DNA of 63,938 nucleotides, counting the filler, from an uncultured Methanosarcinales archaeon (GTDB lineage: Archaea; Nanobdellota; Nanobdellia; Woesearchaeales; CAYSVS01): NCBI GenBank assembly GCA_964434475.1. It is 3 parts of 3 records of this genome, joined end to end, with 100 filler letters (N's around TTAATTAATTAA, not from the genome) between each part and the next. Parts side by side here need not be neighbours in the genome. Positions count along the whole stretch, not along the records: positions 26,610 to 51,337 come from CAYSVS010000016.1; 2 more parts are not named here. One strand, given 5' to 3'. Each line of letters begins with the position of its first letter. The stretch's first letter is position 1. Positions 33,001-42,000 of this stretch are shown here, one piece after another. Made by a program: the position numbers.

Positions 33001-36000
33001 TTGTGTTCCTTTTCATAATCATTCAACAACTGCTTCACTGTCCACCTATAGCTTTTGCCAGCATACTTGCATTTACTTTCATCAAACGCAAAATTTTTTA
33101 ATTTTGCATACAATAAAATCTCTTCTTCTTTCAAAAAATACAAAGGCTTTACTCTTTGTGTAAAAAATTTAGCAAATTTTTTTAAACCTGTCATAGGTCC
33201 TAGCCTGGGCAATAAACTAGGATTGCCCCTGAACAGATTGACCAGTATTGCCTGGCATTCATCATCAAGATTATGACCAGTGACTATCTTATCATAACCT
33301 TTTGAATATTTATTCAGCAGAGATCTCCTCAATGTCCCGCATATATGGCAGGAATTGAATTTTTGCTTTACATACATTATCTTATCCATATCTTTGCCAA
33401 ACTCTTTCTCAAAACTTATTATCTTAAGTTTGATATTATTGTCTTTACAAAATTTTTTAAGATGACCTATAGCTACATCCCTGCTCCCTTCAATACCTTC
33501 ATCTATCACAATAGCATCAACATTTCCAAAGAGCTTTTTAACGATATGCATCACTACCAAGCTATCCTTTCCACCTGAAGCTGCTATAACTATCTTGTCA
33601 TCCGTAGACAAAAGACCATATTTACTTATAGTATCATTTACCTTATTCTCAAAATATTCTATAAAATGCTCTCTGCACAATTCATTATAAAAAACGCTTT
33701 CATCACATAATTTACACTTCATAAATCTTTAAAAATATGGTTTATTTTTAAATGTTTATGGATATATTGACATTAGAAGAGAGGACAGAGATATTTGAAG
33801 AAAATAAAATATATTTGGATAGTACTAATTCTCAAGTTTAGAAAACATATCACAACTTAAGCGATAAATATATGATGGGCGCCCTCAAAGAAATGCGTGA
33901 TGAAATAAGGAATGAACAATAATAATTTTTATTGTATTCTTTAAACGCAGGTAAATAACCAAATGCTTTATTTAACAATAAAAGTATCAAGAATTCTTAG
34001 TATTTCATCTTTATAAGAAGATAAAGGAATCAACAAAAAATGGAGAGTTAAAGGTTTTTTGGATTTAAAATGGATATAAACCATATTATTTTTAATTTTA
34101 TAACCTTCGAAATTAGTCCAATACATCATATTTGATATAGCTAAAGGTCCGGAAATCTTTATTCCTTCATCACTGAACTCATACGTTAATTTCATCAGAA
34201 AAAAATAAATTATAAGAAAAATAAACATTGCCAAGCCTACAAATGAAATGGAATATAAAGAAAAGAAAATACCTGAAAAGATAACAAAGACAGGGAACAA
34301 AAAATATAACAATAATAATACTTTAGGAATGGTTTCGTAAAACCGGCAACCATACTTTAAATAAACAACTCTTTCCTTTAGATATTGTTTCATAAAAACA
34401 ATATAAATTAAGGATATTTAAAATGTTTGGTTAAAGCGAACTAATTTTTAGTTGTTTTGCAGTTCATCCAACTTTTTTTCAATTTCTTCCTTTGTCATAC
34501 CGACCAAAGGTCTAAACTCTACTAATCCTATATCTAATTGCTCAACTTCATCTAAAGTTTGTCCAACAACAACTGCGTTAATTTTATGTTTTTCAGCAAT
34601 TTCTTTAATCTCTTTTTTGTTAGATATTTTTATGTTCTCTAACTTTGCCCCGCAAGAATATTTTTCTAAAACATCATATGCAATATTTCCTAGATTCAAC
34701 AAAACAACAGGACACCCTCTTTTCATCATAAGAAACGCAGCATATATGTCTTTCCTGTCTTCAAGCAGACAAAGCAATTTTCCTGCGCTTCCTAAAGGCA
34801 ATCCTCCAACAGCTTTCTTTTTTTCTGAAAAAACATATGCTTTATCCTTGACTATCTCTATGCATATTTCTTTATCAAAATTTTTAAGGTTAACCTTTGC
34901 TTTTGTTTTCTCAACAACATAAGCTCCAATCTCTCTGTCAATTTCCATAGACGTTTTTTTATGGCCTTTATTGCTTCTTTGTGTTGTTACCCTAAATTTT
35001 GTTTTTTCGTCAAAATCACATATTACGTGAGAAACAGTTTGTTTTATAGATTCAATATCTGAATCGCAAACCTTTGCATAACTATAGCTGACAATTCCAA
35101 ATATATTTTTTATTTCATCAAATTTTTCATCAGTATAAACGAACAATCTTCCATGACTTTTTACTATCTTATCAAAAGAAATATTATTTTTTTTCAGGCA
35201 TTGCTTGACATTATCTTTCAGAATATCCTCAAATATTTTTCTGTTTCCACCTTTTAACGCTATCTCTCCGTATCTAACAATTATCATTTTCTTTTCTTGT
35301 AGTCTTCAATCGCTTTTCTTAACGCATCTATGGAAAGATTAGAGCAATGAAGCTTCAGCGAAGGCAATCCTCCTAATTCATCAGAAATATCCTTGTTAGT
35401 CATCCTTTCTATCTCTGTTAGAGTCCTTCCCTTGACCATCTCGGTCATCTTTGAGCTTGTAGCGATTGCGGCAACACACCCGAACGTCTTTACCTTGATA
35501 TCTTTTATGTATTCTTTGCCTTCCTCATTTTTCTCTACTTTGATAAAAACTTCCATCACATCTCCGCAATTATGTAAAATAAATGCCTCTGAGATAAATG
35601 ATTTGGTTTTATTGACTTCAAGGTTGTGGACTGTTCCATTATATTTTATCTTTTTAACCGAAGATAAAGGCATAAAAAGATAATTTTTATCAAACCAAGA
35701 GTCGATTGATTTTCTTTTTGCTGATTTAAATTTAATCTTCAATATATCTGCTAATTTTTTAAGAGACTCCCTGTGACCTATATGAATTCTATATGCTTCT
35801 TTATGAAAAAGACCTTTTCTTTCTTTTGCAGCTTCTACATAAATTGAAGGCACTATTTTTTGTCTAATTAGTAATATTTTAATCTGTTGACAAAGTCTTC
35901 TAGATATAGTTGCATATCCCGCACGAGATTTATTTATATTAAAAAAACCATCTCCTTTCCAAAGACCATAGATTAAGCTTTTCTGTTTCTCAGGAGGAAG

Positions 36001-39000: not shown

Positions 39001-42000
39001 TTAAGCCAATAACAAAAATAAGGACAGAAATTTTAGAAAAAGAAGAAAAGAAGTTAGAAAATGAAAAAATAATGAAAATAGCATTAGAAAATTGCAAAGA
39101 ATGTATCATAAACAGCACTAAAAAGCATTAAAAAGATAATAAAAAGCCTCAAAAGCTTAAATCTCCATAGGAAATCAAGGAGGTATCCTAACGATAATAT
39201 ATATAATGAGACAATTCTATTTAAAAATGAAAGTATTTAAATATTAGTTCTTATTTATAAGCTTTATAAATTTATTTAAATAATATTTTTGTGATTTTTT
39301 AAATATTATAATGGGGGTAAACAAAATGGCAAAAAAAACTAAGAAAACAACTAAATCTGAGAAAAAAGATATTGAAATTGTAAATATTGTTGTAAGCACT
39401 TCTTTAGAACACGATGTGCCTCTAGAAAAGATGGCTGCTACATTAAGCAACACAGAATATAATCCAGAACAATTTCCAGGGTTAGTAATAAGGATCAAAG
39501 AACCTAAAACAAGCGCCTTAATATTTAGTTCAGGAAAAGTTGTATGTACTGGAGCAAGATCCATGGATAAAGTTCATGAATCCATCAAAAAGATAATAAA
39601 AAGCCTAAAAAAGATTAACATAGACATAAAAATAGAACCTGAAATAAAAATACAAAATATGGTGGCTTCCGGAGAAGTAGGCATGGATCTCAATCTTAAT
39701 ACTTTGGCCATGAAACTGCCTAACACAGAATACGAACCTGAACAATTTCCGGGCTTAGTATATAAGCTTAATGAAGCAAAAGCTACATTCTTGTTGTTCA
39801 GCAACGGAAAAGTTGTGTGTACTGGAACCAAAAGTGTTGAAGAAGTGCATAAAGCTTTAGACATGTTGAAAAATAATCTTAAAAAAATAAAATAAAACTT
39901 TATTTTTTTTAGATATTGAAAATGGATGCTGCTGAACATATTAAGAAGTTTCAGGAATTTTTAGAGACAAATTATCACGCTGAGATGATGGAAAACATCA
40001 GGAAAGGCGATAATTTCTTTAAGATAGATTTCGGTAAACTTTCTAAATTCGACTTTGAACTAGCCAACGAACTTCTCGAAAATCCAGAAGATGTTATTAA
40101 AGCAGCAGAGATTGCAGTAGAGCAGTTCGACACTCCTAAAGAAATTACAAATTTCAAGATAAGGGTTAAAAATCTTCCAGATTCACAAAATATACTGATC
40201 AGAAACATCAGAAGTAAACATCTTGGCAAACTTTTTGCTATAGAAGGCGTAGTAAGGCAAAAATCTGACGTAAGACCCCAGGTTACAAGCGCAAAGTTTG
40301 AATGTCCTAGCTGCGGAAATGTAATAAATGTACTACAATTAGATCAAAAATTCAAAGAGCCTACAAAATGCGGATGCGGAAGAAAAGGAAAGTTTAGGCT
40401 ATTGAACAAAGAATTGATAGATGCGCAGGGCATAGTTCTGGAAGAGATAGCTGAGAAATTAGACGGAGGAGAGCAGCCAAAAAGGATGAATATTTTTCTT
40501 AAAGAAGATTTAGTCAGCCCAATATCAGATAAAAGAACCAACCCAGGAGCAAGAATAATCGTTAACGGAACTATCAAAGAAATTCCTGTAATAATGAGAT
40601 CTGGCGGACAAAGCACACGGTTCGATCTTTTGGTTGAAGCTAACGATGTAGAGCCTGTAGAAGAAGATTTTAGCGAAGTTTTGATAAGTAAAGAGGATGA
40701 GGAAAAAATTAAAGAGATAAGCAAAGATCCTGATCTTTTTGTCAAACTTATAGAATCATGCGCCCCTTCTATATATGGATATGACAAGATAAAAGAAGCT
40801 CTTCTTTATCAACTAGTAGGAGGAGTAAAAAAGATGAGAAATGACGGAGTAGGGACAAGAGGAGATATTCATATGCTCCTTATAGGAGATCCTGGTGCAG
40901 GAAAATCGCAATTATTGAAAAGAACAACAAAAATAGCTCCAAAATCAAGATTCGTATCAGGCAAGGGCGCTTCAGGAGCAGGATTAACTGCAGCCGTAGT
41001 AAAAGATGAATTTTTAGGAGGATGGAGTTTGGAAGCCGGTGCACTAGTGCTTGCAAACAAAGGATTATGCTGTATAGATGAATTAGACAAGATGTCTGTT
41101 GATGACAGAAGCGCTATGCATGAAGCTCTAGAAGGTCAAACCATAACAATAAGTAAAGCCAACATACAAGCGACCTTAAGGGCAGAGACAACAGTATTGG
41201 CGGCAGCAAATCCTAAATACGGAAGATTTGACCCTTATGACATATTATCTAAACAGATAGATCTTCCTCCTGCGTTGATATCTAGATTTGATCTGATATT
41301 TCCTATCAAAGACCTGCCCGAGGAAAAAAAAGATACAAATATGGCCATGTTTATTTTAGGATTACACCAAGACCCTAACATGGGTAATCCTGCAATAGAT
41401 ACAGAACAGATCAGAAAATATTTAGCATATGCAAGAAAAAACATTTCACCTGTTCTGACAGATGAGGCAGTGGAAGAGATAAAAAGGTTCTATGTCCAAA
41501 CCAGAAATGCATCAAGTCAAGAAGAAGCAGGAGCACGAAGCGTACCTATAACAACAAGACAGTTAGAGGCACTAGTAAGATTATCAGAAGCAGCTTCTAA
41601 GATAAGATTGGGCGAAAAGGTAACTTTAAAAGATGCGAAAAAAGCAATAGATCTTTTGAATTATTGTTTGGCGCAAGTAGGTATGGATCCCGAAACAGGA
41701 AAAATAGACATAGATAGGATCACAAGCGGAATAAGCTCATCTACAAGGAATAGGATAAGCACCATAAAAGAGATTATTGCTGAATTGGAGAACAAATTCG
41801 GTAAAACCATACCTATAGAAGAAGTTATCAAAGAAGCAAAAAATAACAAGATGGAAGAAAGTGATGTTGAAGAAATAATTGACAAGCTTAAAAGAGGTGG
41901 TGATATTTTTGAACCAAGGAGAGGATTAATACAAAGGTTGTGAAAATGGAAAAAAAACAAGAAAACAAAAATATTAAAAGACAGGTCGCCAAAAAAACAA

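What a model noticed while it worked through the whole genome (the two positions that open the first line are those of the whole stretch)
34448..39131. ThiI divided into a catalytic-only subunit and a tRNA-binding pseudo-enzyme subunit
The 4-thiouridine synthase is encoded by two genes: g599 (C16:7839-8678) keeps the NFLD-THUMP tRNA-binding part but has a dead PP-loop domain, and g604 (C16:11896-12522) is the active PP-loop domain alone with its Fe-S cysteines. They likely form a heterodimer replacing the usual homodimer.
Evidence so far: In 41 order genomes ThiI is either full length (6 genomes, 378-387 aa) or catalytic-only (13 genomes, about 200 aa; call 33); 11 of those 13 carry the 247-290 aa THUMP partner and none of the 6 has a second copy. 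All 11 partners lost SGGxDS and QVASQT, all catalytic copies keep them. Complex model score 0.86 vs best control 0.00, contacts agree 97%, partner pLDDT at least 84 (mark reached by 116 of 157 solved and 2 of 215 mismatched pairs; call 67).
(Added by a program. Inside this text positions count along the whole contig: they may not be those of the stretch shown here. "Call 12" and the like, gene names such as g00115 and contig names such as C1 are that model's own, and its searches are not shown. The text may have been shortened before it was handed on; [...] marks where a part breaks off. The agent that wrote the report below was given it as the finding of a first reader that could run no searches.)

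Follow-up and report, generated by a model that had tools for sequence, protein, structure and literature searches.

The report
Two-subunit archaeal tRNA 4-thiouridine synthase
In this small archaeon, and in several other archaeal groups, the enzyme that puts sulfur on tRNA position 8 appears to be built from two different proteins, one that holds the tRNA but is catalytically dead and one that is only the catalytic domain, which would give a job to a long-orphaned crystal structure.

Summary
Real and wider than reported. 34448-35287(-) encodes NFLD+THUMP plus a shrunken PP domain lacking the ATP loop and the C-terminal lobe; its model matches orphan structure PH1313 (Z 29.2). 38505-39131(+) is a stand-alone PP-loop domain (SQGIDS, CxxC+C), the genome's only ThiI catalytic domain; iscS and iscU lie between. 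The halves travel together and replace full-length ThiI: 39 of 42 genomes with the catalytic half carry the partner, none of 37 full-length genomes has either (151 order genomes); 53 of 68 ThiI-bearing Thermoplasmatota carry both. The partner keeps mainly dimer-interface residues; the complex model passes (0.85, best control 0.00), possibly by likeness to solved homodimers. In Thermococcales the catalytic-only gene pairs with a dead PH1313-type or a full-length ThiI lacking the third cysteine (29 of 30). A preprint reports that deleting Tk0366, a 191-codon gene by a published table, removes s4U8 in T. kodakarensis although a 381-codon thiI lies two genes away. Best reading: heterodimeric s4U8 synthase (0.8); no biochemistry. 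Corrections: SGGxDS holds in only 20 of 38 catalytic halves, CxxC in 25 of 38.

The parts
34448..35287 (-). tRNA-binding pseudo-enzyme subunit, 279 aa: NFLD (1-69), THUMP (76-154), GGLP linker (161-164), degenerate PP domain without SGGxDS, CxxC, QVASQT or the C-terminal lobe; PH1313-type
38505..39131 (+). Catalytic-only subunit, 208 aa: S11-Q-G-I-D-S16, C78-x-x-C81, Q109-V-A-S-Q-T114, D137-K138, C161, P168-x-T170; resembles PRK08349
35284..36798 (-). IscU/NifU scaffold interrupted by a LAGLIDADG intein; its stop overlaps the partner's start by 4 nt; likely source of the Fe-S cluster (inferred)
36905..38047 (-). IscS/NifS cysteine desulfurase, the only copy found by tblastn; likely sulfur donor (inferred)
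38070..38468 (-). HTH protein with a Cys-rich tail, first gene of the iscS-iscU-partner run, head to head with the catalytic gene
38469..38504 (.). 36-bp AT-rich gap between the divergent HTH and catalytic genes, probably a shared promoter region (inferred)
32841..33722 (-). TtuA/NcsA-like PP-loop thiolase; frequent neighbour of the partner gene in this order, basis of a rival reading

Best explanation
The two proteins form a heterodimeric tRNA U8 sulfurtransferase (ThiI/TtuI). In the known homodimer the tRNA is held by NFLD+THUMP of one subunit and modified in the PP domain of the other (shown for T. maritima), so a duplicate can lose complementary halves. The 279-aa subunit binds the acceptor stem and CCA end and docks through its residual PP scaffold (GGLP, LMMKRG, RPL) on the 208-aa subunit (inferred from conservation and a model). 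The 208-aa subunit binds ATP, adenylates U8 and transfers sulfur at a [4Fe-4S] cluster on C78/C81/C161 (motif shown, cluster inferred from M. maripaludis and P. furiosus TtuI). IscS and IscU between the genes probably supply sulfur and cluster (inferred from position). One tRNA site and one active site per dimer.
For: Only ThiI catalytic domain in the genome, and it has no RNA-binding domain. Order sample of 151: 39 of 42 genomes with the catalytic half have the N-half, 0 of 37 full-length genomes list either half. 50 genomes picked by the partner motif: 0 with ThiI over cut-off, 42 with a clear catalytic half. Thermoplasmatota, 81 genomes: 53 both halves, 13 full-length, 2 one half, 13 none (by profile coverage only). 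Thermococcales: all 55 genomes with an intact catalytic-only match also have a dead (12) or adjacent type-A (43) partner; type A lacks the third Cys in 29 of 30 read, and the one that keeps it is in a genome without the catalytic-only gene. Genes adjacent in G083, G151, G240. 0 of 123 complete partners have SxGxDS; interface positions of the dead domain are more conserved than the rest (0.59 vs 0.35, p 3e-6), G162 invariant; the T. maritima Gly168-Asp319 inter-subunit bond splits with Gly on the partner and Asp on the catalytic half (32 of 39 rows). Complex model 0.85 vs best control 0.00, contacts agree at least 91%, pLDDT at least 84; mark reached by 116 of 157 solved and 2 of 215 mismatched pairs. 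Tk0366 disruption removed s4U8 (preprint passage); TK0366 is 576 nt and TK0368 1146 nt, 605 nt apart on one strand, the layout of the type-A loci (gap 588-606 nt in 14 of 24).
Against: No binding or activity data. The model's pass may come from likeness to solved ThiI homodimers, and the interface positions used come from that model. PH1313 was solved as a dimer on its own (review passage), so the partner can probably self-associate. The genes are usually unlinked (together in 3 of 74 order loci). TK0366 reads exceed TK0368 reads 10- to 60-fold in 4 of 5 libraries, not what 1:1 use predicts. Unpaired cases: 3 catalytic-only genomes, 6 partner-only and 1 partner with a rhodanese-type full-length ThiI (draft genomes), and G237 with type A and a broken catalytic gene. 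M. maripaludis C348A keeps 62% s4U in vivo, so loss of the third Cys need not kill type A. The Tk0366 result is second-hand; the primary paper was not held.
Confidence: 0.8

Rival explanations
1. The two proteins act separately: the catalytic-only protein works as a homodimer or with another RNA-binding or sulfur-carrying partner, and the THUMP protein is an adaptor for another enzyme, such as the neighbouring TtuA/NcsA-like thiolase (as Tan1/THUMPD1 serves NAT10).
For: A ttuA-like gene lies near the partner in 23 of 40 order loci, the catalytic gene in 3 of 40. An E1 (ThiF) gene flanks the catalytic gene in 5 of 27 loci outside the order and ThiS in 1.
Against: The ttuA link was absent from all Thermococcales and other-lineage loci read (shorter flanks), and two intact CxxC-type thiI genes (L015, L017) sit in the same Rpp30/ttuA neighbourhood, so it looks like the ancestral thiI address. 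It does not explain the joint presence of both halves and their exclusion by intact ThiI, nor conservation of the PP-PP interface.
Confidence: 0.1
2. They form a complex, but its target is not only U8 (for example U9 or another RNA), or its form is a larger assembly such as two partners with two catalytic subunits.
For: Some Thermococcales keep an intact ThiI (type B, 15 of 15 with all cysteines) beside the pair. s4U9 exists in Thermoplasma. PH1313 crystallised as a dimer. Uneven transcript counts.
Against: In most carriers, including this genome, the pair is the only ThiI-type system; 13 of 13 tRNA genes found here have U8; Tk0366 loss removed s4U at position 8. NFLD/THUMP residues that contact RNA in the U8 complex are kept (E8, K12 in 124 of 124 rows; R16, R47 over 90%).
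Confidence: 0.08
3. The partner is a decaying pseudogene product, or the split is an assembly artefact.
For: Its PP domain is shortened and divergent.
Against: The genes are 3.2 kb apart on opposite strands and both hold a PP domain, so no frameshift explains them. The same form is kept in five archaeal lineages, folds confidently (pLDDT 95) and matches a solved protein over 278 residues.
Confidence: 0.02

Closest known systems
ThiI/TtuI homodimer of Thermotoga maritima and Bacillus anthracis (PDB 4KR6, 2C5S; PMC4041423)
   Same: Same three domains, same PP-PP interface in the model, tRNA bound by one subunit and modified by the other.
   Different: One gene and two equivalent sites there; here two genes with complementary losses. 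The partner aligns only to T. maritima residues 6-332; the catalytic half has no NFLD or THUMP.
[4Fe-4S] TtuI of Methanococcus maripaludis and Pyrococcus furiosus PF1288 (PMC9825150)
   Same: CxxC + C motif in the catalytic domain (C78, C81, C161).
   Different: Those are single chains active alone; that paper states that all TtuI enzymes contain NFLD, THUMP and PP domains, which the catalytic subunit does not.
PH1313 of Pyrococcus horikoshii (PDB 1VBK)
   Same: Best sequence and fold match (E 5.6e-37; Z 29.2, rmsd 2.5 A, 278 aligned); same one-residue deletion at the dead PP-loop. The genome G223, which encodes a protein identical to the 1VBK chain, has a catalytic-only gene and no full-length ThiI match.
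   Different: Described in print only as a truncated ThiI-like protein without shown activity; no partner was proposed in the passages read.
NCBIfam PRK08349 (NF006222), 'hypothetical protein', 198 positions
   Same: Stand-alone ThiI PP domain of the same length (E 1.2e-47).
   Different: Score 162 is below the cut-off of 251; the family has no assigned function.
Eukaryotic Ctu1/Ctu2 (Ncs6/Ncs2) and ADAT2/ADAT3
   Same: Enzyme plus inactive paralogue in tRNA modification (Ncs6/Ncs2 complex named; inactivity of Ctu2 and ADAT3 is recalled).
   Different: Other families and positions (U34, A34), eukaryotic; here the active subunit has also lost its whole RNA-binding module.

Membership tests
ThiI/TtuI s4U8 synthase (TIGR00342) | NFLD, THUMP and PP domain in one chain; score over 264.5 bits | tested here: not met
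   165 bits over positions 1-207 and 178 bits over 175-368, in two genes; met only by the pair together
ThiI/TtuI s4U8 synthase (TIGR00342) | PP-loop SGGxDS and QVASQT | tested here: met
   Catalytic half has SQGIDS (S11, G13, D15, S16 invariant in 38 of 38) and QVASQT; second Gly not kept; absent from the partner
ThiI/TtuI s4U8 synthase (TIGR00342) | RNA-contact residues of NFLD/THUMP and of the PP domain | tested here: met
   Partner keeps Y6, E8, K12, R16, E20, R47 (85-100% of 124 rows); catalytic half keeps T150-Y151, P168, T170 matching T. maritima Y333, P352, T354
ThiI/TtuI s4U8 synthase (TIGR00342) | Forms s4U8 in tRNA | not testable with these tools
   Indirect only: Tk0366 disruption removed s4U8 and TK0366 has the catalytic-only size
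[4Fe-4S]-dependent TtuI subclass | CxxC + C motif | tested here: met
   C78-V-L-C81 and C161; 25 of 38 catalytic halves of the order, 34 of 34 in Thermococcales
[4Fe-4S]-dependent TtuI subclass | Cluster bound and needed for activity | not testable with these tools
   Needs spectroscopy
E. coli-type ThiI | C-terminal rhodanese domain | tested here: not met
   No rhodanese hit in either protein
PH1313-type ThiI-like protein | NFLD-THUMP plus shortened PP domain without catalytic motifs | tested here: met
   Z 29.2, rmsd 2.5, 278 aligned; shared one-residue deletion
PRK08349 (NF006222) | Score over 251 bits | tested here: not met
   162.4 bits; same architecture
Tan1/THUMPD1-type adaptor | NFLD+THUMP only, partner of an acetyltransferase | tested here: not met
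   Carries an additional 110-residue PP-fold domain; an acetyltransferase partner was not searched for

The most novel reading that the evidence does not exclude
The heterodimer is the main form of s4U8 synthase in Thermoplasmatota, Thermococcales and about half of the ThiI-bearing genomes of this DPANN order, and it has arisen several times because the enzyme works in trans. Thermococcales preserve the series: intact ThiI alone; full-length ThiI that has lost only the third cluster cysteine plus a catalytic-only gene; truncated PH1313-type plus catalytic-only gene. The gene annotated as full-length thiI in most Thermococcus genomes would then be a pseudo-enzyme, and resident partners can adopt newly truncated catalytic domains of other origin.
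Probability: 0.55. Interest if true: 0.82.

Novelty: new variant of a known kind. Interest (0 to 1): 0.74.

Why it matters
It would assign a function to two orphans at once (structure PH1313, family PRK08349), correct the view that every ThiI/TtuI is a three-domain homodimer, and explain why knocking out a 191-codon gene removes s4U8 in T. kodakarensis despite an apparently complete thiI nearby. It is directly testable in that genetic model. It also offers a prokaryotic, apparently repeated case of a homodimer turning into an enzyme/pseudo-enzyme heterodimer, with intermediates still alive. Databases mislabel the catalytic half as QueC (names).

Tried and rejected
Frameshift or mis-assembly: rejected (opposite strands, both genes hold PP domains, no remnant by tblastn). 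Single origin of all catalytic-only proteins: rejected by AU test (p 2.7e-4), and of all partners (p 1.5e-6); after regrouping post hoc p was about 0.02, so the number of deep origins is not settled; these are quick LG+G4 trees on subsamples of 61 and 66 rows. Distance correlation between paired subunits (rho 0.49, 0.24 rate-corrected, 35 pairs) had no control for shared ancestry and is not counted as evidence. Rfam found nothing in 26610-50000. The protein search showed stand-alone relatives but few names. A first regex missed the Thermococcales CxxC; corrected. ARAGORN without intron mode found only 13 tRNAs. Nine paper searches (read as listings unless cited) showed no description of a two-subunit ThiI; the PH1313 crystallisation paper and Hirata 2019 were not held and may discuss the paralogues; bioRxiv supplements were closed. 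No model of either homodimer or of partner with TtuA was run (one job only).
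Full report
Observation. The window belongs to a small-genome archaeon (1.5 Mb, 97% complete); related loci are labelled Woesearchaeota/Nanoarchaeota. 34448-35287(-) encodes 279 aa with ThiI_fer (1-69), THUMP (76-154) and only the first 41 of 197 positions of the ThiI PP domain. LEDRKDI replaces LSGGIDSP, and CxxC, QVASQT and the C-terminal lobe are missing. Its model (pLDDT 95) matches PH1313 over 278 residues (Z 29.2, rmsd 2.5 A) and T. maritima ThiI only over residues 6-332. 38505-39131(+) encodes 208 aa covering the PP domain alone, with SQGIDS, C78-x-x-C81, QVASQT and C161; a stop codon stands in frame before its ATG. 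It is the only PF02568 match in the genome. Between them lie iscU (intein-containing; stop overlapping the partner's start), iscS and an HTH gene head to head with the catalytic gene; a ttuA-like gene lies two genes downstream of the partner.

Distribution in the order. Of 151 genomes searched with TIGR00342, 37 have a full-length ThiI (34 over cut-off, one divergent, two cut by contig ends but with the PP-loop in the THUMP chain), 42 have the catalytic half (3 cut by contig ends) and 39 of these 42 have the N-half; one more has only a contig-cut N-half; the other 71 show no ThiI-type match. No full-length genome lists either half among the matches shown (79 weak matches under 31 bits were not listed). 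The dead PP domain was read in 37 partners.

Beyond the order. In 50 of these genomes none had ThiI over cut-off; 42 had a clear catalytic half, 1 a fragment, 1 a divergent rhodanese-type full-length protein (L324), 6 the partner only. In an even draw of 81 Thermoplasmatota genomes 53 had both halves, 13 a full-length gene, 2 one half and 13 nothing (coverage only, sequences not read).

Thermococcales (61 genomes). 55 have an intact catalytic-only match (34 of 34 read have CxxC + C). Each also has a THUMP-bearing paralogue: 12 a PH1313-type protein (11 read), 43 a full-length 'type A' gene within about 3 kb. Type A keeps SGGIDS, CxxC and QVASQT but has Ile/Val at the third Cys in 29 of 30 read; the exception (L284) is in a genome with no other match. 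A separate type B (15 of 15 with all cysteines) occurs in part of the genomes; two have type B only. Eight genomes have only dead partner plus catalytic half, among them G223, whose partner is identical to the 1VBK chain. In G151 and G240 the two genes overlap by 4 nt. Against the pattern: G237 has type A and a broken catalytic gene, and G258 type A and type B without it.

Outside genetics. A preprint (10.64898/2026.08.09.743744, passages read) states that s4U8 of T. kodakarensis tRNA-Trp disappeared on disruption of thiI Tk0366. A supplement of PMC4247193 (rows read) gives TK0366 as 576 nt and TK0368 as 1146 nt, on one strand, 605 nt apart with one gene between: the sizes and spacing of the catalytic-only and type-A genes (gap 588-606 nt in 14 of 24 loci). 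So the gene needed for s4U8 is too short to hold NFLD and THUMP, and the long gene does not suffice. That TK0368 is a type-A thiI lacking the third Cys is inferred from this layout, not read. The primary paper was not held. The same table shows 10- to 60-fold more reads for TK0366 than TK0368 in 4 of 5 libraries, which does not fit simple 1:1 use.

Mechanism. In T. maritima ThiI each RNA is held by NFLD+THUMP of one subunit with U8 near the PP domain of the other; the interface is mainly PP-PP and includes Gly168-Asp319 (PMC4041423, passages and supplement part 1 of 2 read). The pair divides these parts exactly. The partner keeps NFLD RNA contacts (E8, K12 in all rows; Y6, R16, R47 over 90%) and the Gly168 equivalent G162 (invariant); 0 of 123 complete partners have SxGxDS (124 rows, one a misclassified full-length protein). 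The catalytic half keeps the Asp319 equivalent (32 of 39 rows) and the C-terminal RNA-contact elements. The complex model scored 0.85, best of 3 controls 0.00, contacts agreeing in at least 91%, partner pLDDT at least 84; the mark was reached by 116 of 157 solved and 2 of 215 mismatched pairs. A like complex has been solved, so the pass may show likeness only. Model-interface positions in the dead domain are more conserved than the rest (0.59 against 0.35; 30 and 82 positions; p 3e-6, related sequences not corrected). CxxC + C binds an essential [4Fe-4S] cluster in M. maripaludis and P. furiosus TtuI (PMC9825150, parts 1, 3, 4 of 5 read); cluster, adenylation and supply from IscS/IscU are inferred here. 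13 of 13 tRNA genes found have U8 after trimming an extra 5' base in five.

Evolution. Catalytic-only domains are not one clade (AU p 2.7e-4): three nest among the order's full-length ThiI, one from the window's own genus, and two derive from Thermococcales type A. PH1313-type partners group with type A (99% SH-aLRT), and two nest inside it (97%). Deeper origins are unresolved (post hoc p about 0.02), and the shared one-residue deletion (32 of 37 and 10 of 10 partners) may point to a common origin. No outgroup from methanogens or bacteria was included, so direction is inferred.

Rivals. A ttuA-like gene is near the partner in 23 of 40 order loci and the catalytic gene in 3 of 40, but two intact thiI genes share that neighbourhood and Thermococcales do not. 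E1 genes flank the catalytic gene in 5 of 27 loci elsewhere (55 of 123 neighbour ORFs scanned), which suggests other sulfur donors and does not exclude the heterodimer. PH1313 was solved as a dimer (PMC9957541, passages), so larger or mixed assemblies are open.

What is known. PH1313 is described as a truncated ThiI-like protein of unconfirmed activity, and multiple Pyrococcus thiI homologues are noted with a guess at separate thiamine and tRNA roles. Nine searches of the held library showed no two-subunit ThiI; subscription papers, two key papers and bioRxiv supplements were out of reach. An earlier unchecked note of this scan reaches the same idea in another genome; it is not independent support. 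PMC5372739, PMC6313347, PMC7668247, PMC12255305, PMC2948915 and PMC11323500 were seen as passages only.

Verdict. A real feature and a new variant of a known enzyme: it works like ThiI/TtuI, but neither gene is a member by the one-chain definition. Heterodimeric s4U8 synthase, confidence 0.8; interest 0.74.

Noticed in passing
window 35284-36798 (-): IscU carries a LAGLIDADG intein inserted at a Cys of the scaffold motif (PTC|...HN|CGD), so Fe-S assembly depends on splicing.
   Followed up: no
window 38535-38552 and homologues: The second PP-loop Gly is relaxed almost only in stand-alone subunits: non-Gly in 18 of 38 (order) and 32 of 34 (Thermococcales) against 1 of 33 and 1 of 45 full-length proteins. 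Unexplained.
   Followed up: partly
window 34745-34765 and homologues: The same one-residue deletion at the dead PP-loop occurs in 32 of 37 partners of the order and 10 of 10 Thermococcales partners not picked by that motif, although trees suggest more than one origin: convergence or domain exchange.
   Followed up: partly
L035:4135-4749 (G030, same genus), L036, L230: These catalytic halves lack CxxC and nest among the order's full-length ThiI (97% SH-aLRT) while the resident partner stays: apparent replacement of the catalytic subunit.
   Followed up: partly
L043, L051, L054, L060, L064, L070 and others: A sub-clade of catalytic halves has lost CxxC and has GPExC at the third cysteine: probably cluster-free chemistry in the split form.
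   Followed up: no
L232, L233, L238, L240, L326; L231; L253, L329: Catalytic gene beside an E1 (ThiF) in 5 of 27 loci, ThiS in 1, CysRS in 2, exosome Csl4 in 8: sulfur supply may differ by lineage.
   Followed up: partly
G328 C1:735749-737222: Genome with two catalytic and two partner matches, one pair head to head as in this window.
   Followed up: no
L261, L262, L272, L277: A DUF998 gene lies between the type-A thiI and the catalytic-only gene.
   Followed up: no
window 29981-32120 (+): Run of a 100-aa protein, a radical SAM protein and an 87-aa peptide ending in a His/Cys-containing tail; by recall it resembles His-Xaa-Ser peptide-modification systems.
   Followed up: no
L008 (G096) and L278 (G237): A full-length thiI with an internal TAA, and a catalytic-only gene broken in two frames: pseudogenes or sequence errors.
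   Followed up: no
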